Of a stretch of DNA of 59,543 nucleotides, positions 3,407-51,561 are shown piece after piece (positions within the stretch are counted from its first letter, which is position 1; every line of letters begins with the position of its first letter). Under the pieces are notes generated by a model. It saw only the letters and a program-made list of their open reading frames with translations. It ran no database searches and was not told the origin of the DNA. The DNA is from Propionibacterium sp. (GTDB lineage: Bacteria > Actinomycetota > Actinomycetes > Propionibacteriales > Propionibacteriaceae), in the NCBI GenBank assembly GCA_012838755.1, contig DUOQ01000286.1, positions 1 through 59,543 of the forward strand, in the 5' to 3' direction. The position numbers were made by a program, and so were the translations under genes.

Positions 3407-3541
3407 TCAGTCCGCGAACGTGCTGGTGTCGGTCACGTGGCGGTAGCGGACCTTCGCGCCGACCACGTCGTCATGGGCCCGGGTGATCTGGTCGCCGGCG
3501 ATGACCTCGCGCAGGGGGCTTCTCCTCTGGGCGTGTTGCAT
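3407..3541 (-). pseudogene. C-terminal remnant of a Zn/NADP-dependent alcohol dehydrogenase (AdhC/CAD-like)
   Basis: Translates to ..EVIAGDQITRAHDDVVGAKVRYRHVTDTSTFAD*, resembling the family C-terminus (EVI..DQINEAY..V....VRYRFVID). Confidence 0.6.
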
Positions 3542-3599
3542 CTCTGAGTGACGACTATGCCCCCTGGGAGGCACAAGGCGCACTCAGATTTGTCGCACG
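3532..3599. repeat. REP/REPIN-like inverted pair (TCTGAGTGACGA ... CGCACTCAGATTTGTCGCACG)
   Basis: Same unit and similar spacer as 7890-7957; overlaps the kinase stop codon. Confidence 0.8.
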
Positions 3600-5062
3600 G
3601 GGGCCAGTGGCACCCGCACGGTGAACTCGGTGTGGCCGGGGCGCGACCGCACGTCGACGTGGCCACCGTGGGCGGCGACGACGGCGGCCACGATCGCCAG
3701 GCCCAGGCCCGTCGACGGGACTCCGCCACCGGCCCGGGACCGGCTGGCGTCGGCGCGGGTGAACCGTTCGAACACGCGGTCGGCGACCTCCGGCGGGATG
3801 CCCGGGCCGTCGTCGGAGACCCGCACCACGGCCCAGCCCTGCTCGGCGGCCAGCGACGTGGTGACGCGCGTCCCGGCGGGGGTGTGCGTGCGCGCGTTGG
3901 CGAGCAGGTTCGCAACGACCTGGGTCAGGCGGTGCCGGTCGGCGAGGGCCACGACCTCGGCGTCCGGTAGCGAGAGCGCCCACGCGTGGTCGGGCCCGGC
4001 GGCGCGGGCGTCGGAGACGGCGTCCGCCACGAGGGTGCTCAGCGGCGTCGGGGCGATCTCCAGCGCCGGGCCGGAGTCGAGCCGGGCGAGCAGGAGCAGG
4101 TCCTCGACGAGGTGCGACATGCGCTCGGACTCCGACTCGATCCGCTCCAGGGCGTGCGCGGTCGTCGCGGGCACGTCGGGGCGTTCCCGGCGGGTGAGTT
4201 CGGCGTACCCCCGGATGGCGGCCAGCGGGTTGCGCAGCTCGTGCGAGGCGTCCGCGACGAACCGGCGCAGCTTGGTCTCGGAGCCCTCCCGCGCGCCCAA
4301 CGCCCCCTCGACATGGTCGAGCATGCGGTTGAACGCGATCCCGACCTGGCCGACCTCCGAGCGCGGGTCGGTGTCCTCGGCGGGGAAGCGCACGGGCACG
4401 TCCACCGCGCCGGACCCCAGCGGCAGCGCCGACACCTGGTGGGCGGTCGTCGCGAGCCGGGCGAGGGGGCGCAAGTTGCGCTCGACCACGGTCCGGGCGG
4501 CCAGGAAGGCGATGATGATCGCCATCAGCGTCAGCACCACGGCGGCGACCATGATCGAGGCCATGGACGCCGTGAGTCCGGCCAACGGCAGGCCGACCAC
4601 CATCACCTGCGACCCCTGGGCGATGCCCACGATGCGGTAGGGGCCCAGGCTCGGGAGGGCCCGGGTCTCGGGGCGTCCCGTCGGCACGACCCGCTCGAGC
4701 TCGGCGGCGACCTGCTCGCCCACCACGTTGCGGTCGTGCTCGACCTGGACGATCCCGCCCTGGCCCTGCCAGTAGAACAGCAGCCCCTGTGCCAGGCCGG
4801 GCCCGCCGCGTCCGGGGGACATGCCCTGGCCGCGGCCCTCGCCACGCGTCTGGGTGGCGCTCGCGAGCAGTTGCTCGTCGAGCTGGTCCTGCAGGATGCG
4901 GTGCATCGTCAGGGCGGTCAACCCCGACAGCAGCACCGCGATCACCGCGACCAGCGCGGTGGTGGACAGGATGAGGCGGCGGCTGAGGGTCCCCGCCCCC
5001 AGCGGCTCCGGGCGGGGGTGGGACGCCGCGGGCGCGGGCACCACGGGGCCGGGACCGGTCAT
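3584..5062 (-). CDS. HAMP-domain sensor histidine kinase (PhoR/TcrY-like)
   Basis: Two TM segments, FVADASHELRNPL H-box, NLLANA, DDGPGI, GLGLAIV. Confidence 0.95.
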   Translation of the reverse strand: MTGPGPVVPAPAASHPRPEPLGAGTLSRRLILSTTALVAVIAVLLSGLTALTMHRILQDQLDEQLLASATQTRGEGRGQGMSPGRGGPGLAQGLLFYWQGQGGIVQVEHDRNVVGEQVAAELERVVPTGRPETRALPSLGPYRIVGIAQGSQVMVVGLPLAGLTASMASIMVAAVVLTLMAIIIAFLAARTVVERNLRPLARLATTAHQVSALPLGSGAVDVPVRFPAEDTDPRSEVGQVGIAFNRMLDHVEGALGAREGSETKLRRFVADASHELRNPLAAIRGYAELTRRERPDVPATTAHALERIESESERMSHLVEDLLLLARLDSGPALEIAPTPLSTLVADAVSDARAAGPDHAWALSLPDAEVVALADRHRLTQVVANLLANARTHTPAGTRVTTSLAAEQGWAVVRVSDDGPGIPPEVADRVFERFTRADASRSRAGGGVPSTGLGLAIVAAVVAAHGGHVDVRSRPGHTEFTVRVPLAPVRQI

Positions 5063-6702: not shown

Positions 6703-7875
6703 GTGGAGCGATCCTGGCGCACCGCAGCCGTCCGCGCGGGCATCGACGCCGACACCGCCGAGGGCGCCGTCGTCCCCCCGATCTACCTGTCGACCAACTA
6801 CGGGTTCACCGGGCTGCGCGCCCCGCGCACCCACGACTACTCCCGTTCGGGCAACCCGACGCGCAGCCACCTCGCCGACGCGCTCGCGGAACTCGACGGC
6901 GCCGCGGGGGCCGTGGTCACGGCGTCCGGGATGGGGGCGATCACCACGACGCTCATGGCCCTGGTCTCGGCGGGGGACACGGTGGTGGCCCCGCACGACG
7001 CCTACGGCGGCACGTGGCGCCTGCTGGACGCGCTGGCCAGGCGGGTGGGCTTCGACCTGCACCTCCTCGACCTGGCGGCGCCGGACGCCGTGGAGCGGGT
7101 CCGCACCCTCGTCCCGGTCCTGACCTGGGTGGAGACACCGTCGAACCCCCTGCTGGCGATCAGCGACCTCGCGGCGCTGGCGGACGCGACCCACGCCGGT
7201 GGCGGCTTGCTGGTGGCCGACAACACCTTCTGCTCGCCGGTGCTGCAGCGTCCCCTCGAGTTCGGGGCGGACGCCGTGGTGCAATCGTCGACGAAGTACC
7301 TCAACGGGCACTCCGACGTGATCGGGGGCGTGGTGGCCTCGGCGACGGCCGAGATGGCCGAGCAGATGGCCTGGTGGGCGAACTGCCTGGGCGTCACCGG
7401 GGGAGCGTTCGACAGCTACCTCACGCTGCGCGGGTTGCGCACGCTGGGCGTGCGGATGGCCGCGCACCAGGAGAACGCCGCCGCGGTCGTGGACGCCCTG
7501 TGCGCCCACCCCGCCGTCGAGCGCGTGCACTACCCGGGGCTGGCCGACCACCCCGGGCACGAACTGGCGCAGCGCCAGATGGACGGGTTCGGGGCGATCG
7601 TGTCGTTCGAGGTCGTCGGGGGAGAGGACGCCGTGGCGGCCCTGGTCGACGGGCTCGCGCACTTCTCCTTGGCCGAGTCCCTCGGCGGCGTCGAGTCGCT
7701 CATCTGCCACCCGGGCTCGATGACCCACGCCGCGATGCCGCCCGAGGTGCAGGAGGCGGCCGGCCTGCGACCCGGCCTCGTGCGCCTGTCGGTGGGCATC
7801 GAGGACCCCGACGACCTCGTCACCGACCTGGTGGCCGGGCTGGATCGCGCCGGGGCGTGCGACGAATCTGAGTGA
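6703..7875 (+). CDS. metB: Cystathionine gamma-synthase
   Basis: YSRSGNPT, ETPSNP, DNTF, PLP lysine in SSTKYLNGHSD, AESLGGVESL; start GTG 6703 or ATG 6640. Confidence 0.9.
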   Translation: MERSWRTAAVRAGIDADTAEGAVVPPIYLSTNYGFTGLRAPRTHDYSRSGNPTRSHLADALAELDGAAGAVVTASGMGAITTTLMALVSAGDTVVAPHDAYGGTWRLLDALARRVGFDLHLLDLAAPDAVERVRTLVPVLTWVETPSNPLLAISDLAALADATHAGGGLLVADNTFCSPVLQRPLEFGADAVVQSSTKYLNGHSDVIGGVVASATAEMAEQMAWWANCLGVTGGAFDSYLTLRGLRTLGVRMAAHQENAAAVVDALCAHPAVERVHYPGLADHPGHELAQRQMDGFGAIVSFEVVGGEDAVAALVDGLAHFSLAESLGGVESLICHPGSMTHAAMPPEVQEAAGLRPGLVRLSVGIEDPDDLVTDLVAGLDRAGACDESE

Positions 7876-7990
7876 CGACTCGTCTGCGGCGTGCGACAAA
7901 TCTGAGTGACGAACATGCCCCTTGAGGCCGCGAAGACGCACTCAGATGTGTCGCACGGCTCGGAGCTTGCGCACTCAGATCTGCCACACG
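7856..7990. repeat. Nested REP/REPIN-like cluster: two forward copies (7856-7878, 7890-7912) and two inverted copies (7937-7957, 7970-7990) of CGTGCGACAAATCTGAGTG
   Basis: Directly visible; lies between convergent genes and overlaps the metB stop. Confidence 0.85.
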
Positions 7991-7995
7991 GGGGG

Positions 7996-28860: not shown

Positions 28861-28914
28861 CACTTCCGGGTGGCAGGACCCCAAGAATCCTTGGGGTCCC
28901 GCCACCCGGAAGTG
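28861..28914 (-). terminator. Long hairpin (~25-bp stem) downstream of the SH3 gene
   Basis: CACTTCCGGGTGGC.GGACCCCAAG ... CTTGGGGTCC.GCCACCCGGAAGTG. Confidence 0.7.
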
Positions 28915-28929
28915 CTGGTGGAGCAGGGG

Positions 28930-31228: not shown

Positions 31229-31301
31229 GGGCCTATAGCTCAACTGGCAGAGCAACGGACTTTTAATCCGTGGGTTCTGGGTTCGATCCCCAGTGGGCCC
31301 A
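31229..31301 (+). tRNA. tRNA-Lys (anticodon UUU), CCA not encoded
   Basis: GGGCCTA/TGGGCCC acceptor stem, D arm GCTC..GAGC, anticodon loop CTTTTAA, GGTTCGATCC. Confidence 0.97.
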
Positions 31302-40875: not shown

Positions 40876-40895
40876 GCTGGCCCGCGAACACACAC

Positions 40896-41021
40896 ACGTG
40901 CTCCGGGGTCGGTGAGAATCCGAACCGGCGGTTACAGTCCGCGACCCGGCGGCCGCAAGGCCAATGGTTGATCCGGTGGAATTCCGGGACCGACGGTCAA
41001 AGTCCGGATGGGAGGCGCACG
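40896..41021 (+). ncRNA. FMN riboswitch (RFN element)
   Basis: CTCCGGGGTCGGTG..CCGAACCGGCGGT..AGTCCGCGA..GATCCGGTG..TCCGGGACCGACGGT..AGTCCGGATGGGAG. Confidence 0.96.
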
Positions 41022-41111
41022 AGGCGTGTCCGTCACACGCGCACTCGCGGTGGCGGGCCCGTTGGCATCCTCCCAGTCCTGCCCCGGCGCAGAGCGAGAG
41101 GGGAGGGGCCG

Positions 41112-45219: not shown

Positions 45220-46914
45220 TCACGCCTGCTCGCGCAGCCACCGGCGCAGGTGCCAGGTCGCGCGCACGTCGTCCTCGTTGTACTGCAGCACCCGCACCCG
45301 GGCCAGTTCCCGGACGCGGTCGTCGGGGTCGCCGACCGCCTCGGCGAACCAGCGCTGGGAGTTGAGGCCGCCCGGGTCCTCGTCGCGCCAGGCGAAGCCG
45401 GTGACGGCGGCCGTGACCACCTTGAGCCCGAGCCCGTTGGCGCCGAAGAAGTTGCGACGCACGACGTCGAACAGGTCGACGAAGCCCTCCTGCGCCCACG
45501 CGGAGGCCCACGCGCCCACGTCGCCGAGCCGCGGGGCCAGGCGGTTGACCCGGACGACCTCGTAGTCGGAGTAGTGGTACACCGCGGCGTCCCGCCCCGC
45601 CACCGTCTGGCGGAGCCAGCCCAGTGCGCGCCGCGCCAGGTCGAGTTCGGCGGCGTCGTCGAGGTCGGCGAACGTGGCGAACTGGCGGCAGTACGGCTCG
45701 CCGCGGGAGGGGTCGTGGACCCAGAACCCCCACAGGTACACGCGGTCGTCGGAGGACGTCTCGATGTCGACGTCGATCTCCAGGTCGTGCGTCGGCAGGT
45801 CGAGCGGGCCCTGCGTCTGGCGCTCGAGCTCGACCCCGGCGTCGATGAGCGTGGCCCGGTGGTGCGCGCGGCGCAGCCGCTGCTCGCTGCCCACCCGGTG
45901 GCTCGCCCGGGGGAGGTACTGCTCCAGGAGCGTGTCGAGGTCGGCGTGGGCGAGTTCGGCGACCGTGCTGATGCCCAGGCGGCGCAGCGTGCGCACCTCG
46001 TGGACGTCCAGCGGCGCCTTGGTGATGCGCAGGGACAGGTCGTCGGCGTCCAGTTGCGCCTGGCAGTGTTCCTGCCACTCGCAGCCCCGGCACTCGCTCG
46101 ACAGGATCGGGGTCAGCAGCTTGTCCTGCCCCGAGGACGCGAGGGCGGCCTCGGCGAGCTCGACGCGGTAACGGTGCTCCTGGTCGTAGCGGGCCAGGGT
46201 GCTGAGCGGGTCGGCCTGGTCGGGCCACTCCACCGTGCGCGGGTCGGGCGGCATGCGCTCCTCGGCCAGGTTGAGCCAGGTGATGACCTCCTCGACCGCC
46301 CCCGGCCGGTCGGGGTGGAGCGGGATCTGGTCGATGCCCACCAGGCCCGCCCACGGCACCTCGGCGGCGTGGCCGCAGGCCTCGAGCAGTCGCCAGTAGT
46401 GAGCGACCTGCAGGGCGGCGTTGGGGCGGCTGGTCCAGCGGAACCGGCGTCCCGCCACGGGTAGCGGCCGGCGCGGGGCGGCCAGGGACGCCACGAAGAG
46501 GTCGTCGGACTCGGGGTTGCAGGACTCGAGCACCCGGTGGAACTTCACCTGGACCGGGTGGTAGCCACCCGACTCGGCCCGCGAGCGCACGAGCATCGAC
46601 GGGCGGCCGCGGCGGTGGGCGGCCTCGTCGCGGGGGAGCAGGCCGCCGATCACGACGTCGGCGCCGGACGCCATCGCCTCCAGGCAGGCGCGCTCGGCGT
46701 CCGCGCTGGGTGCCTCGCGAAGGTGGCGCAGGTCGACGACCCGGCCGGGGGAGGAGAGCACCGCGCCGAACACCTTCGCCTCGGTGGCGTCGGGGTCACG
46801 GAAGAACGGCGGGTCCGGCGGGGTGAGGCTCGGCGCGACCAGGTTCGGGGTGAACCGGTTGACCGTCTTCAGCGGGCAGCTGCGGGCGGCGTAGGCGTCC
46901 AGGGTGAACGACAT
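45220..46914 (-). CDS. TM0106-family RecB-like nuclease with RNase H-like C-terminal domain
   Basis: C..C.W..HC, DVDIE, VYHYS.YE, FVDL, GLKVV, YNEDDV.AT. Confidence 0.88.
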   Translation of the reverse strand: MSFTLDAYAARSCPLKTVNRFTPNLVAPSLTPPDPPFFRDPDATEAKVFGAVLSSPGRVVDLRHLREAPSADAERACLEAMASGADVVIGGLLPRDEAAHRRGRPSMLVRSRAESGGYHPVQVKFHRVLESCNPESDDLFVASLAAPRRPLPVAGRRFRWTSRPNAALQVAHYWRLLEACGHAAEVPWAGLVGIDQIPLHPDRPGAVEEVITWLNLAEERMPPDPRTVEWPDQADPLSTLARYDQEHRYRVELAEAALASSGQDKLLTPILSSECRGCEWQEHCQAQLDADDLSLRITKAPLDVHEVRTLRRLGISTVAELAHADLDTLLEQYLPRASHRVGSEQRLRRAHHRATLIDAGVELERQTQGPLDLPTHDLEIDVDIETSSDDRVYLWGFWVHDPSRGEPYCRQFATFADLDDAAELDLARRALGWLRQTVAGRDAAVYHYSDYEVVRVNRLAPRLGDVGAWASAWAQEGFVDLFDVVRRNFFGANGLGLKVVTAAVTGFAWRDEDPGGLNSQRWFAEAVGDPDDRVRELARVRVLQYNEDDVRATWHLRRWLREQA

Positions 46915-48362: not shown

Positions 48363-50056
48363 TGGCACGCGCACGTCGCAAGGGGACGAAGAACAAGCAG
48401 CAGGCACCGCAGTCGGTCGCGCCCGACCCCGTGGTGGTCCCGAGCGACCCCTACGAGGAGTTCGCCGACCGGGAGTGGGACTTCGCCTGGCTCCCCGACG
48501 ACGAGCCCGAGGTCGTCGACGAGCGGGCCCTGCACGCGATGGCGAAGTCGTGGCGCCACGGCCGGGCCACGCGCTCGTTCCTCGACGTCTTCCAGGACGC
48601 CTACATCGCGCTCTTCAGCGTGCTGATGATCGGCGCGATGATCGTGAACGTCATCATCGGCAGCCAGACCCAGTCGGCGACCTGCGACACCGCCGCCTGC
48701 CTCAACGGGCGCCTGCTCGTCCCGTGGGGCGTGTTCTTCGCCGTCTCGGCGCTCACGGTGTCGACCGCCCGGCTCTTCGGACCGGTGCTCGCCTCGGCCG
48801 CCGAGGGTTTCTGGCTGATGGAGGCCCCCATCGGGCGCAAGCGGATCCTGCGCGGGCGCCTGTGGGCCGTCGTGGCCGGGGCGCTCGTCGTGGCGGCCGC
48901 CGTGGCCGCCGGGGTGGCCGGCATCGCGGGGGAACCCCCGGTCGTCATCGTGGCCTGGGTCGTGGCGTCCGGCCTCGTGGCGTCCGGGCTGGTGGCCTGG
49001 TCTGCGTGGGAGCAGTCGATTGAGCGCGTTCGGTTGCTGCGCGTCGTGCAGGCCGTGCTGGCGGCGCTCGCCGCGCTGGTGCTCGGCACGATGGTGGCCG
49101 TGGCCGCGGGCTGGGTGCGCATCGACCCGCCGGCGTGGCTGGGCGTCGTCCCATGGGGCCTCGCTGCCGTCGGCCTCGTCATGACGATCGTGTTCACCCT
49201 CGGCGCACACCGGCGCCTGGACCAGTTCGCCCGCACCCGCCTCACCTCGGGTGGCTCGCTCGTGTCGGGCCTGCAGGGTGCGATGTTCGGCCTCGACCTG
49301 GGGTTGGCCCGCGACATCCTCGTCGACCGCGAGGCGATCGAGCGCGGCCACGTCAAGCCGACGCCGGGGCGGGGACTGGGCACCTCGGCCCTCGTCTGGC
49401 GCGACCTCCAGCGGCTGCGCCGCTTCCCCCGGCCGCTGCTCGGGCTGGCCGGCGCGGTCCTGGCCCCCTACGCCTCGGACGCCGTCGGCCTCACCCTGCT
49501 CACCCCGTTCCTGTCGGCGGTCGCGCTGATGTTCGCGCTGGTGCCGACCCTGGGGGCCCTGCGCGTGCTGTCGCGGTCCACGGGGCTGGCGCGTACCCTG
49601 CCGTTCACCACCGCGCAACTGCGCACGGCGAGCTTCACCGTGCCGGCGATCCTGGCTGCCGTGTGGGCCGTGGCCACCCTCCCCGCGTTCACGGGGATCA
49701 CCGGCGGCCTGGAGCGCCACCCCGTCGTGGCGCTGGCCGTGGCCGTCGCCTGTGGCCTGGGCGGGTTGCTCGGGGCCATCCGGTGGCAGACCGCCAAGCC
49801 GGTGAACTTCGCCGTCCCCATGATGGCGACCACCGCCGGCGCGGTGCCGCCGACCCTGATCTTCAACCTGATGCGCGGCTTCGACGTCGCCGCCCTCGTG
49901 ACCGCGCCGATCCTGCTCAACGTCGACCCCATCTGGTCCCTCGGCATCGGGGTCGTCCTGCTGCTCATCCTGCGGACGGGCTTCAACATGGAGGAGATGT
50001 CCGAGCAGGCCAAGGAACAGCAGAAACTCCTCGAGGCCGAGAAGGCCCGCCGCTGA
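48362..50056 (+). CDS. Multi-TM ABC exporter permease (DUF6297-like)
   Basis: About 12 hydrophobic segments; coupled to the ATPase. Confidence 0.75.
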   Translation: MARARRKGTKNKQQAPQSVAPDPVVVPSDPYEEFADREWDFAWLPDDEPEVVDERALHAMAKSWRHGRATRSFLDVFQDAYIALFSVLMIGAMIVNVIIGSQTQSATCDTAACLNGRLLVPWGVFFAVSALTVSTARLFGPVLASAAEGFWLMEAPIGRKRILRGRLWAVVAGALVVAAAVAAGVAGIAGEPPVVIVAWVVASGLVASGLVAWSAWEQSIERVRLLRVVQAVLAALAALVLGTMVAVAAGWVRIDPPAWLGVVPWGLAAVGLVMTIVFTLGAHRRLDQFARTRLTSGGSLVSGLQGAMFGLDLGLARDILVDREAIERGHVKPTPGRGLGTSALVWRDLQRLRRFPRPLLGLAGAVLAPYASDAVGLTLLTPFLSAVALMFALVPTLGALRVLSRSTGLARTLPFTTAQLRTASFTVPAILAAVWAVATLPAFTGITGGLERHPVVALAVAVACGLGGLLGAIRWQTAKPVNFAVPMMATTAGAVPPTLIFNLMRGFDVAALVTAPILLNVDPIWSLGIGVVLLLILRTGFNMEEMSEQAKEQQKLLEAEKARR

Positions 50057-50063
50057 CGGAGCC

Positions 50064-50115
50064 GGCTGGGCTGATCCGGGCTGGCCTGATCCGGGCTGGG
50101 CTGATCCGGGCTGGG
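50064..50115. repeat. Tandem repeat, ~3.5 x 15 bp GGCTGGGCTGATCCG
   Basis: Units start at 50064, 50079, 50094 and 50109 (partial). Confidence 0.9.
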
Positions 50116-50229
50116 GGCGCGACACTCACCGATGTCACTCGGGAGACGCGTGAGGAAGCCGCTCAGATGTGACTAACCCGCGTGTCGGGGCGGGCGAGGC
50201 CGCGAAGCCCAGCAGATCCGCCAGCGACG

Positions 50230-50266
50230 TGTGGACAACGGTCAGCGCCGGCGCGGGTTGTCCACA
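50230..50266. promoter_or_regulatory. Two inverted DnaA-box sequences TGTGGACAA (50230-50238) and TTGTCCACA (50258-50266)
   Basis: Exact match to the high-GC actinobacterial DnaA box TTGTCCACA. Confidence 0.6.
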
Positions 50267-50317
50267 GGTGGTGATCCGGGTGACCGGAATCGAGGACACG
50301 TGCCGACAACTCAGGGC

Positions 50318-51226
50318 ATGGAAGAAGTTCTCGATCTGGCCCACCGACAGGGGTACGTGACCACGGCCCAAGCGGCCAACCTCGGCGTCGGGCGCATGTC
50401 CCTGCACCGTCTCGTGGGCGCGGGGGTGTTCCTCCACACCGCGCAGGGCGTCTACGTCCCGCGCGACGACAGCACCCGCGAGGGACGCCACGCGGCGGTC
50501 ACGCGCGCGATCCTCGATGCCGACCCGTGGTCGGTCGCGAGCCACCACTCGGCCTTGGTCCTGCACGGCATCAACCTGTACGGCGTCCCGTTCGACCAAG
50601 TCCAGGTCGCCGATCCGCGGTGCAGCAGTCGCAGCCACCGATCGCTGCACCGCCACGTCCTGCGCGATGGCGACCCCGTCGTCACGATCGGCGAGCACAG
50701 GGCCATCGGCCTCCCCCTGGCCCTGTGCCAGACGGCGAGCCGGTGGGGCATGGTGGCCGGCCTCGTCTCCATGGACCACGCGCTCCGCTTGGGCGAGGTG
50801 GCCAAGGATGACCTCCAGTCCGTGATCGACTCCGGACGCCTCAGGCGCGGCATCCGAGCCGCCCGGCGGGCCGCGGCCCTGGCGGACGGACGGGCCGAGT
50901 CGCCGGGGGAGTCGCGCCTGCGTGCCATCGTCCACGGTGGGTCCTTCGACTACGACCTCCAGGCGAACGTGGGTGGACCGGGCTCGGGATACGTCGCAGA
51001 CCTCCTCATCGATGGACGCGTCGTGCTCGAGTTCGACGGCGAGTTGAAGTACGACGGGCCGGAGGGCAGGAAGGCCATCGTCGCCGAGAAGCGTCGTGAG
51101 GACTGGATTCGGTCCCGGGGATACGGATTCATGCGCGTCATGTGGCCCGAACTCGACTACCCGGCCACGGTCCAGCGCGTGCTCCACGGGCACGTGCTGG
51201 CCACGCGTGCAGCTCGTGCCGCCTGA
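50318..51226 (+). CDS. AbiEi-like wHTH + Vsr/DUF559-like PD-(D/E)XK nuclease domain protein
   Basis: QGYVTTAQA..G..GVY N-terminus; ASH.SA; AESPGESRLR; ADL..VVLEFDG..KY; EKRRED. Confidence 0.8.
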   Translation: MEEVLDLAHRQGYVTTAQAANLGVGRMSLHRLVGAGVFLHTAQGVYVPRDDSTREGRHAAVTRAILDADPWSVASHHSALVLHGINLYGVPFDQVQVADPRCSSRSHRSLHRHVLRDGDPVVTIGEHRAIGLPLALCQTASRWGMVAGLVSMDHALRLGEVAKDDLQSVIDSGRLRRGIRAARRAAALADGRAESPGESRLRAIVHGGSFDYDLQANVGGPGSGYVADLLIDGRVVLEFDGELKYDGPEGRKAIVAEKRREDWIRSRGYGFMRVMWPELDYPATVQRVLHGHVLATRAARAA

Positions 51227-51561
51227 CGTGGTGACGACTCCGGCCTGACGTTGGTCGGGGCTGGGTGCCCCACGCGCACCCACCCCCAGCCTCCCGACAC
51301 GCGGGTTCGTCACATCTGAGTGGCTTCCTCACGCGCGTCTGGCGTGACATCGGTGAGTGTCGGCGCGGCCCGACCGCGCACCATCCCCCAGAGGTTGCCC
51401 CGAGTATTTCCGCAACTCCTCCCTTGCCAATATGGGATCCTGGATGAGCGCCTGACTAGGGTGAATGTGGGGGCGGGCGCAAAATGGCGCTTGTCTGATG
51501 AGTTCCCTAGACTGGCCCGGAGTTGGGCGCCGCGTGGTGCCCGCAGGAGGGGTGTGATTCG

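What the first reader, a model, noticed from the sequence alone, without database searches (positions are those of the whole stretch)
50116..51366. Transposon-shaped cassette whose only gene is an AbiEi-like/DUF559-like nuclease: candidate mobile element class without a recognised transposase
Seen: GGCGC | 69-bp IR | gene | 69-bp IR | GGCGC, with the IRs 62/69 identical, placed between an ABC permease and menJ-nuo. The protein has a wHTH N-terminus and a Vsr-like D..(E)FDG..KY nuclease C-terminus. No AbiEii toxin partner is present, so the usual 'type IV antitoxin' label does not explain it. The IR core recurs as gene-free hairpins elsewhere in the window. Inference: an autonomous element or REP-associated enzyme with non-autonomous derivatives. 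A 5-bp GC-only duplication can arise by chance in this genome.
Basis: partly seen in the sequence, partly recalled or inferred. Interest (0 to 1): 0.8.

Follow-up and report, generated by a model that had tools for sequence, protein, structure and literature searches.

The report
Replication-linked nuclease with its own repeats
A gene for a predicted DNA-binding nuclease sits between two copies of a 68-base repeat that is scattered 26 times through this bacterium's chromosome, and related genes across actinobacteria mostly carry repeats of their own and a DnaA-box-like promoter motif, so this is likely not a jumping transposon but an undescribed repeat-and-enzyme partnership that would parallel the known REP/RAYT systems with an unrelated enzyme.

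Summary
The inverted arms (62/69) and the gene are real, but the transposon reading fails. The arms are 2 of 26 copies of a dispersed 68-bp repeat (REP-A). GGCGC overlaps the repeat's end and arises from its usual leader (14% of random pairs; also around a gene-free pair and absent in the sister species). The gene has stayed at this site since two sister species split (dS like its neighbour, dN/dS 0.28), and the 'empty' relative keeps a hairpin from inside the cassette. The window's gene-free hairpins belong to another family, which frames another paralogue. What stands: an AbiEi-fold plus Vsr/I-Bth0305I-fold protein; 68 of 97 homologous loci have a shared repeat on both sides (1 of 300 control genes); four large repeat families here each sit beside their own paralogue; arms evolve in concert; 79 of 97 promoters carry a DnaA-box-like motif (5 of 300 controls). 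Best reading (0.55): a REPtron-like system whose nuclease likely binds and cuts its repeats so that host repair copies them. Binding, cutting and expression are untested. Not found in the papers searched; this scan has noted the same system on other genomes.

The parts
50120..50187 (+). Left arm: 68-bp REP-A unit (dyad blocks CGACAC..GTGTCG at the ends and GTCAC..GTGAC at positions 15-19/50-54)
50230..50238 (-). DnaA-box-like 9-mer (TTGTCCACA on the minus strand), 88 bases before the start
   Evidence: box sequence from PMC4285127 passage
50258..50266 (+). Second DnaA-box-like 9-mer TTGTCCACA, 60 bases before the start; both boxes kept in G013 (one with a mismatch)
50318..51226 (+). Gene, 302 aa: AbiEi-like fold (about 1-190) fused to a Vsr/I-Bth0305I-like nuclease fold (about 195-298); invariant E198 Q215 D228 E238 D240 G241 K244 E257; Tyr245 where Vsr-type enzymes have His
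51257..51292 (+). GC hairpin between the stop and the right arm; homologous to the sequence in the gene-less perm-menJ gap of G002
51295..51362 (-). Right arm: 68-bp REP-A unit in inverted orientation
50116..50120 (+). GGCGC claimed as target duplication; overlaps the repeat's first base and is a common repeat leader (not a TSD)
51362..51366 (+). Second GGCGC; overlaps the repeat's last base (not a TSD)
50064..50115 (+). 15-bp tandem repeat (3.5 copies) abutting the left arm; one more copy in two strains
3532..3600 (.). Family-B hairpin (not part of this cassette; family B frames paralogue G000:C321)
7890..7958 (.). Family-B hairpin with partial copies on both sides (not part of this cassette)

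Best explanation
The gene encodes a predicted DNA-binding nuclease that sits between two copies of a 68-bp repeat family dispersed through the chromosome, and the protein likely binds these repeats and likely nicks or cuts at them, so that host recombination would copy and overwrite repeats at intergenic sites, as RAYT is thought to do for REPINs but with an unrelated enzyme. Shown: the anatomy, the dispersed family, the one-gene-one-family pairing among paralogues, concerted change of the arms, vertical inheritance at this site with rare relocation, and DnaA-box-like motifs in the promoter. Inferred: that the AbiEi-like part reads the dyad blocks at fixed spacing in double-stranded DNA (length 68 in 22 of 26 copies, variable middle, arms fold no better than shuffles); that the Vsr-like part cuts; that spread is by break repair/conversion in the manner of a homing endonuclease rather than cut-and-paste with a target duplication; that the gene itself moves rarely when it is copied between repeats; and that DnaA ties expression to replication.
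For: Cognate flanking repeats at 68 of 97 homologous loci against 1 of 300 control genes. In G000, 6 of 14 paralogue loci have a repeat pair on both sides, and the four large families (A 26, B 28, C 18, D 31 copies) each adjoin their own paralogue (C212, C321, C90 one side only because the contig ends, C270). No Y1/RAYT transposase (PF01797) found in the assembly that could serve them. REP-A found in 4 of 25 genus genomes, all near kin: many copies in the two that hold the gene (27 and 19 half-site matches), few in the two that lack it (8 and 1), like REPIN decay after RAYT loss (10.1101/2021.07.10.451892, passages). Arms within a species are more alike (61/68, 58/68) than orthologous arms (50/68, 52/68), and species-specific variants run through dispersed copies too (mid-motif in 17 of 22 G000 units, 1 of 19 G013 rows, 0 of 9 G002 rows). 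Seven of the nine closest proteins have repeats ending CGACAC(T/G)CA although they lie at five or more sites; the other two are sisters and share another end (read by eye). L079 has the gene where G000 has a gene-free REP-A pair. Nuclease fold best matches I-Bth0305I (Z 12.1, rmsd 3.0, 97 aligned), a dimeric homing endonuclease that contacts up to 60 bp (PMC3239194 passages). dN 0.20, dS 0.72. DnaA-box-like motif within 170 bp upstream in 79 of 97 homologues against 5 of 300 controls and 1 of 97 downstream.
Against: No binding, cleavage, expression or movement was observed. The histidine that is the proposed general base in Vsr and I-Bth0305I (PMC3239194 passages) appears replaced by Tyr245 in this clade (motif position), so activity is open. 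All 19 pairs of loci with similar repeats are also syntenic, so repeat-protein co-variation is confounded with kinship. 29 of 97 homologues and several G000 paralogues show no repeat pair. Five of 20 fetched REP-A regions of relatives have a REP-A at the same site in G000: copies are long-lived, and no clean fresh insertion was caught. Six DNA runs carry the cassette in place with no same-species empty or inverted allele. Concerted change could also come from selection for binding rather than from copying.
Confidence: 0.55

Rival explanations
1. Domesticated host function: the protein is a DnaA-regulated DNA-processing or chromosome-organising factor, the repeats are its binding sites kept by selection, and their spread is a side effect or due to ordinary recombination.
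For: DnaA-box-like motifs otherwise lie before dnaA, in the dnaA-dnaN gap and before ORFs that look like nrdH, ssb and mfd (the last three named from recalled sequence likeness); purifying selection; a REP-A unit lies in the dnaA-dnaN gap; no match in 72,556 plasmids or 50,697 phages; fixed-length dyad sites.
Against: Patchy presence (this clade in a minority of 25 genus genomes), 14 paralogue loci of which at least three are broken, a different private repeat for each paralogue, and repeats always bracketing the gene are easier to explain by a selfish partnership. The two readings are not exclusive.
Confidence: 0.25
2. Autonomous IS-like transposon with 69-bp terminal inverted repeats and a 5-bp target duplication, the nuclease acting as a TnsA-like transposase.
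For: Insertion absent from 16 syntenic relatives; inverted arms; closest clade at five or more sites; TnsA appears among fold matches, at Z 7.2.
Against: TSD explained by the repeat leader and missing in G013; a head-out pair with a direct repeat at its ends also brackets the RNase P RNA gene; single copy; 17 of 17 pairs above 70% identity syntenic; G002 keeps a hairpin from inside the unit (score reached by 0 of 3000 random and 0 of 1971 post-stop windows); flanking repeats are direct rather than inverted in 23 of 68 loci.
Confidence: 0.07
3. Catalytically dead regulator: an AbiEi-type repressor whose repeats are operators.
For: Full AbiEi fold (Z 10.8); His replaced by Tyr; AbiEi autorepression at inverted repeats is established knowledge (recalled).
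Against: Acidic nuclease residues E198, D228, E238, D240 invariant in 87 sequences; one arm lies downstream of the gene and many copies lie just after stop codons, not at promoters.
Confidence: 0.09
4. Orphan type IV antitoxin, as automatic annotation says; repeats incidental.
For: PF13338 and PADLOC AbiEi hits; database names.
Against: No AbiEii gene next to it or found in the assembly; extra nuclease domain; repeat pairing 68 of 97 versus 1 of 300.
Confidence: 0.04

Closest known systems
REPIN-RAYT systems / REPtrons and TIRtrons (10.1101/2021.07.10.451892, passages; PMC3733652, passages)
   Same: Single-copy, vertically inherited enzyme gene flanked by members of a dispersed intergenic repeat family; several paralogues each with its own family; fewer repeats where the gene is missing; TIRtrons also have long inverted flanks.
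   Different: Enzyme is AbiEi + Vsr-like fold, not HUH/Y1; host is Actinomycetota (PMC3733652 has 0 occurrences of 'Actinobacteria' in its main text); no GTAG/CGTC tag; unit is 68 bp of fixed length and often a poor single-strand hairpin; DnaA-box-like promoter.
EDxHD homing endonuclease I-Bth0305I (PDB 3r3p; PMC3239194, passages)
   Same: Best structural match of the C-terminal domain; N-terminal DNA-binding part plus Vsr-like catalytic part; long pseudo-palindromic target of about 60 bp.
   Different: Intron-encoded, cuts the allele that lacks it; here free-standing and flanked by its putative target; NUMOD versus AbiEi N-terminus; His replaced by Tyr.
AbiEi type IV antitoxin (PDB 6y8q; PF13338)
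   Same: Fold of residues 1-190.
   Different: No toxin partner found; extra nuclease domain; dispersed repeats.
Insertion sequences / MITEs; Tn7 TnsA
   Same: Inverted flanks, one gene, lineage-restricted insertion; TnsA shares the restriction-enzyme-like fold (Z 7.2).
   Different: No true target duplication, single copy, no DDE partner, long residence, internal sequence shared with an 'empty' site.
Predicted programmed-inversion targets annotated 'DUF559 domain-containing protein' (PMC9881135, one table passage: odds ratio 14.3)
   Same: An independent survey found DUF559 genes associated with long inverted repeats.
   Different: Read there as inversion targets; no strand-changing joint was seen here in 8 runs, and the repeats are dispersed families.

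Membership tests
REPIN-RAYT / REPtron | HUH/Y1 transposase (RAYT) | tested here: not met
   Only PF13338 matched; fold is AbiEi + Vsr-like; PF01797 not found in G000
REPIN-RAYT / REPtron | Gene flanked by members of a dispersed intergenic repeat family | tested here: met
   26 copies; 68 of 97 homologues versus 1 of 300 controls
REPIN-RAYT / REPtron | Single-copy gene, vertical inheritance at one site | tested here: met
   G000 and G013 syntenic, dS 0.72 versus 0.66 and 0.35 for neighbours; 17 of 17 close pairs syntenic; older relocations exist
REPIN-RAYT / REPtron | Repeat forms a single-strand hairpin, short REP with GTAG/CGTC tag | tested here: not met
   Arms z about 0; only the symmetric copies and a few others fold well; no tag in the consensus
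REPIN-RAYT / REPtron | Enzyme binds and cleaves the cognate repeat | not testable with these tools
   needs biochemistry
IS / MITE | Target-site duplication outside the terminal repeats | tested here: not met
IS / MITE | Clean empty site in relatives | tested here: not met
   16 gene-less sites exist but show no clean junction; G002 keeps an internal hairpin
IS / MITE | Near-identical copies at several sites or on plasmids/phages | tested here: not met
   single copy
Type IV toxin-antitoxin (AbiE/MenAT) | AbiEi-like fold | tested here: met
Type IV toxin-antitoxin (AbiE/MenAT) | Adjacent nucleotidyltransferase toxin gene | tested here: not met
   neighbours are DUF6297 and MenJ-like; PF08843 not found in G000 (only this family was searched)
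EDxHD / Vsr-like endonuclease | Vsr-like catalytic fold | tested here: met
   3r3p Z 12.1, 3hrl Z 11.8, 1cw0 Z 10.1
EDxHD / Vsr-like endonuclease | Complete active site including the histidine | tested here: inconclusive
   Acidic residues invariant, Tyr245 at the motif position of the His; mapping is by motif, not by residue-level superposition
Homing endonuclease | Cuts the allele lacking the gene and is copied into it | not testable with these tools
   needs a cleavage and homing assay

The most novel reading that the evidence does not exclude
A widespread actinobacterial class of selfish repeat systems run by an AbiEi-Vsr nuclease: each enzyme recognises its own ~60-70-bp dyad repeat in double-stranded DNA, is switched by DnaA in step with replication, and spreads and overwrites its repeats (and rarely its own gene) by homing-like break repair, with no transposase at all; the family would also be a natural library of paired long-site nucleases and targets.
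Probability: 0.35. Interest if true: 0.87.

Novelty: new variant of a known kind. Interest (0 to 1): 0.7.

Why it matters
How REP-like repeats arise and spread in genomes without RAYT is an open question (PMC3733652 names repeat families that lack a dedicated transposase). This gives a candidate enzyme for actinobacteria with a direct test: four enzyme-repeat pairs in one genome that serve as each other's specificity controls. It would also correct a very common automatic label ('type IV antitoxin' or 'very-short-patch endonuclease') and, if the enzymes cut, supply many natural nuclease/long-target pairs.

Tried and rejected
Target-site duplication: rejected. Window hairpins as derivatives of the arms: rejected, family B. 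Known RNA family: none at the cassette. Fresh REP insertion sites between species: intergenic DNA too diverged to read a junction. Same-species empty or inverted alleles: none in 8 runs; the joints 50138-51339 and 50153-51344 are other REP-A copies (their inner letters match C115 and C331); the joint 50047-51471 in X14 (one contig, depth 3.9, 88% threshold) is most likely a related species without the gene, not resolved. Expression: RNA run X19 does not cover the gene and X18 is probably DNA: no evidence either way. PafBC-like and LexA-like promoter motifs (recalled patterns): 1 or 0 of 97 and 0 of 97, so the earlier 'damage-induced' lead was not supported by these patterns. Tandem duplications beside repeats: 4 of 184 and 8 of 133 flanks against 19 of 1971 controls, too weak to use. 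A 9-base end motif across the genus was swamped by background. Sequence search of PDB: no match. Metagenome scan: nothing. Recalled M. tuberculosis locus tags as literature leads: unreliable (Rv2100 is a 13E12-family gene, PMC3381160 passages), dropped.

Full report
Setting. The window is contig C212 of G000 (3.04 Mb, 332 contigs, 71% G+C, 100% complete). Titles of the closest named records place the family in Propionibacteriaceae.

The observation. The arms 50121-50189 and 51293-51361 are inverted and 62/69 identical, GGCGC stands outside both, and one gene lies between them. The protein (302 aa from ATG 50318) matches only PF13338 AbiEi_4 at residues 2-47 and PADLOC AbiEi models; Pfam DUF559 is not matched. 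An AlphaFold model from 87 sequences (pLDDT 96.4) aligns residues 1-190 to AbiEi 6y8q (Z 10.8, rmsd 7.0, 178 aligned) and 195-298 to I-Bth0305I (Z 12.1, rmsd 3.0, 97 aligned), ngo0050 and Vsr. E198, Q215, D228, E238, D240, G241, K244 and E257 are invariant. By motif position Tyr245 stands where Vsr-type enzymes have the histidine proposed as general base (PMC3239194, passages), so cutting is predicted, not shown. Neither AbiEii (PF08843) nor a Y1 transposase (PF01797) was found in the assembly.

The arms are copies of a dispersed family. A profile search finds 26 copies in G000, 22 of 68 nt and 4 of 67 nt. Conserved are the terminal hexamer dyad, a pentamer dyad at 15-19/50-54 and, in most G000 copies, a middle motif; the rest varies while the length does not. 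The two arms fold no better than shuffles; the six copies scored as symmetric and a few others fold well. Copies lie mostly alone or as pairs between genes; one pair brackets the RNase P RNA gene and one copy lies in the gap after dnaA.

The target duplication is not one. The repeat begins at C50120 and ends at G51362, inside the claimed pentamers. GCGCC precedes GACAC in 11 of 26 copies and GGCGC in 4, so 92 of 650 ordered pairs set head-out give a 5-bp direct repeat; the gene-free pair on C327 shows the very same GGCGC/GGCGC. The orthologous cassette in G013 has GTGCC and GCGCC. The hairpins at 3532 and 7890 share at most a 12-base word with the arm and belong to family B (28 copies, no overlap with A), which frames the paralogue on C321.

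History of the site. Of 24 genus genomes with the menJ-like gene, 16 have the DUF6297 gene directly upstream with no nuclease, 2 (G000, G013) have nuclease and arms, 5 have another upstream gene and 1 ends at a contig. G000 and G013 are sisters (100/100), next to G002+G015 and G011. Between G000 and G013 the nuclease has dN 0.20 and dS 0.72, the left neighbour dS 0.66, the right 0.35: residence since the split, under purifying selection. The gap in G002 holds a 30-base match to 51257-51286, inside the arms, a score reached by 0 of 3000 random and 0 of 1971 post-stop windows; so either G002 lost the gene and arms or the right arm landed separately; neither is a clean transposon insertion. REP-A was found in 4 of 25 genus genomes: 27 half-site matches in G000, 19 in G013 (72% complete), 8 in G002 (four symmetric units, none near a homologue) and 1 in G015, with 0 for the reversed control. 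Arms within a species are 61/68 and 58/68 alike, orthologous arms 50/68 and 52/68; species-specific variants extend to dispersed copies, also at shared sites (the G013 and G002 rows include both readings of symmetric units and some half-sites). Five of 20 regions fetched from relatives have a REP-A at the same site in G000, so copies persist for long. Six DNA runs hold the cassette in place; no same-species empty or inverted allele was seen, one low-depth contig of uncertain origin skips it.

The pattern is general. Of 104 homologous loci given to (79, 25; L002-L006 were left out to avoid double counting, 7 dropped for short flanks, L084/L085 are near-duplicates), 68 of 97 share a repeat of 25 bases or more between the 400 bases up- and downstream (45 best read inverted, 23 direct), against 1 of 300 control genes drawn from 643 mechanically called ORFs. 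The repeats differ from locus to locus: similar in 10 of 13 pairs at 70% protein identity or more, 8 of 33 at 55-70%, 1 of 144 at 45-55% and 0 of 2088 below; all similar pairs are also syntenic, so kinship confounds this. Synteny holds in 17 of 17 pairs at 70% or more, 58 of 71 at 55-70% and 35 of 317 at 45-55%. The nine closest proteins lie at five or more sites; seven have repeats with the same end as here and the other two, sisters, share a different one (by eye). L079 has the gene where G000 has the gene-free pair on C281. G000 holds 14 paralogue loci, at least three broken and two cut by contig ends; 6 have a repeat pair on both sides; families A, B, C and D (26, 28, 18, 31 copies) each adjoin one paralogue. 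No relative was found in the plasmid or phage collections.

Promoter. TTGTCCACA, listed as the high-affinity DnaA box of Mycobacterium and Streptomyces (PMC4285127, passage), occurs twice before the gene. With one mismatch allowed it lies within 170 bases upstream of 79 of 97 homologues, against 5 of 300 controls and 1 of 97 downstream; exact 38 of 97 against 2 of 300 (controls include genes inside operons). In G000 10 of 35 exact boxes precede 8 of 13 paralogues; four of these paralogues were first noticed through their boxes, and among the nine found first with upstream DNA 4 have one, against 0.002 expected per 200 bases. Other boxes precede dnaA and lie in the gap after it. DnaA binding is inferred; self-binding by the protein is not excluded but the motif is shared across 30%-identical paralogues whose repeats differ.

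Mechanism. Shown: anatomy, pairing, concerted change, vertical residence with rare relocation, promoter motif. Inferred: the AbiEi-like part reads the dyad blocks, the Vsr-like part nicks or cuts, host repair copies or overwrites repeats, and the gene is rarely carried along between repeats; DnaA times it to replication. I put this at 0.55, a domesticated host function at 0.25, a dead regulator at 0.09, an IS-like transposon at 0.07, an orphan antitoxin at 0.04.

Relation to what is known. It works like a REPtron (10.1101/2021.07.10.451892 and PMC3733652, passages read) but fails membership on the enzyme and on the repeat's form. Nine literature searches (listings and abstract starts) returned no paper describing this pairing; the nearest is a table row in PMC9881135 showing DUF559 genes enriched among predicted inversion targets. 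The library lacks most subscription papers, and no supplements were read, so prior description there is not excluded. Earlier notes of this scan report the same system on other genomes; they are not independent evidence. My reading was formed before and the DnaA motif was noticed and counted.

Verdict. A real feature, not a transposon with a target duplication, but a well-supported member of an apparently undescribed repeat-plus-nuclease system of actinobacteria. New variant of a known kind; interest 0.7.

Noticed in passing
G000:C93:3518-3585: A REP-A unit lies in the gap after dnaA next to DnaA-box-like motifs, the probable replication origin.
   Followed up: partly
G000:C228:6035-6656 (L154): A head-out REP-A pair brackets the RNase P RNA gene.
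   Followed up: yes
window 28861-28916: A near-perfect palindrome of repeat family C (18 copies), which adjoins the paralogue on C90.
   Followed up: partly
window 7850-7995: Family-B hairpin with partial copies on both sides, a small cluster.
   Followed up: partly
window 50064-50115: 15-bp tandem repeat abutting the left arm, with an extra copy in runs X15 and X16; similar short tandems beside repeats in some homologous loci, only weakly enriched.
   Followed up: partly
L079 versus G000:C281:2771-2992: A 47%-identical homologue sits at the site where G000 has a gene-free REP-A pair; its record is titled Micrococcus but its flank is 79% identical to G000 DNA.
   Followed up: partly
G000:C216:5033-5136: A degenerate REP-A-like stretch lies where L022 carries a distant homologue with long tandem repeats.
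   Followed up: no
G000:C260, C234, C183: Paralogues split over two frames or truncated; C183 keeps its repeat pair.
   Followed up: no
window 45220-46914 (-): 564-aa protein with only a C-terminal RNase_H_2 domain (PF13482) beside the methyltransferase gene.
   Followed up: no
window 40895-41023 and 31229-31301: FMN riboswitch and a tRNA.
   Followed up: no
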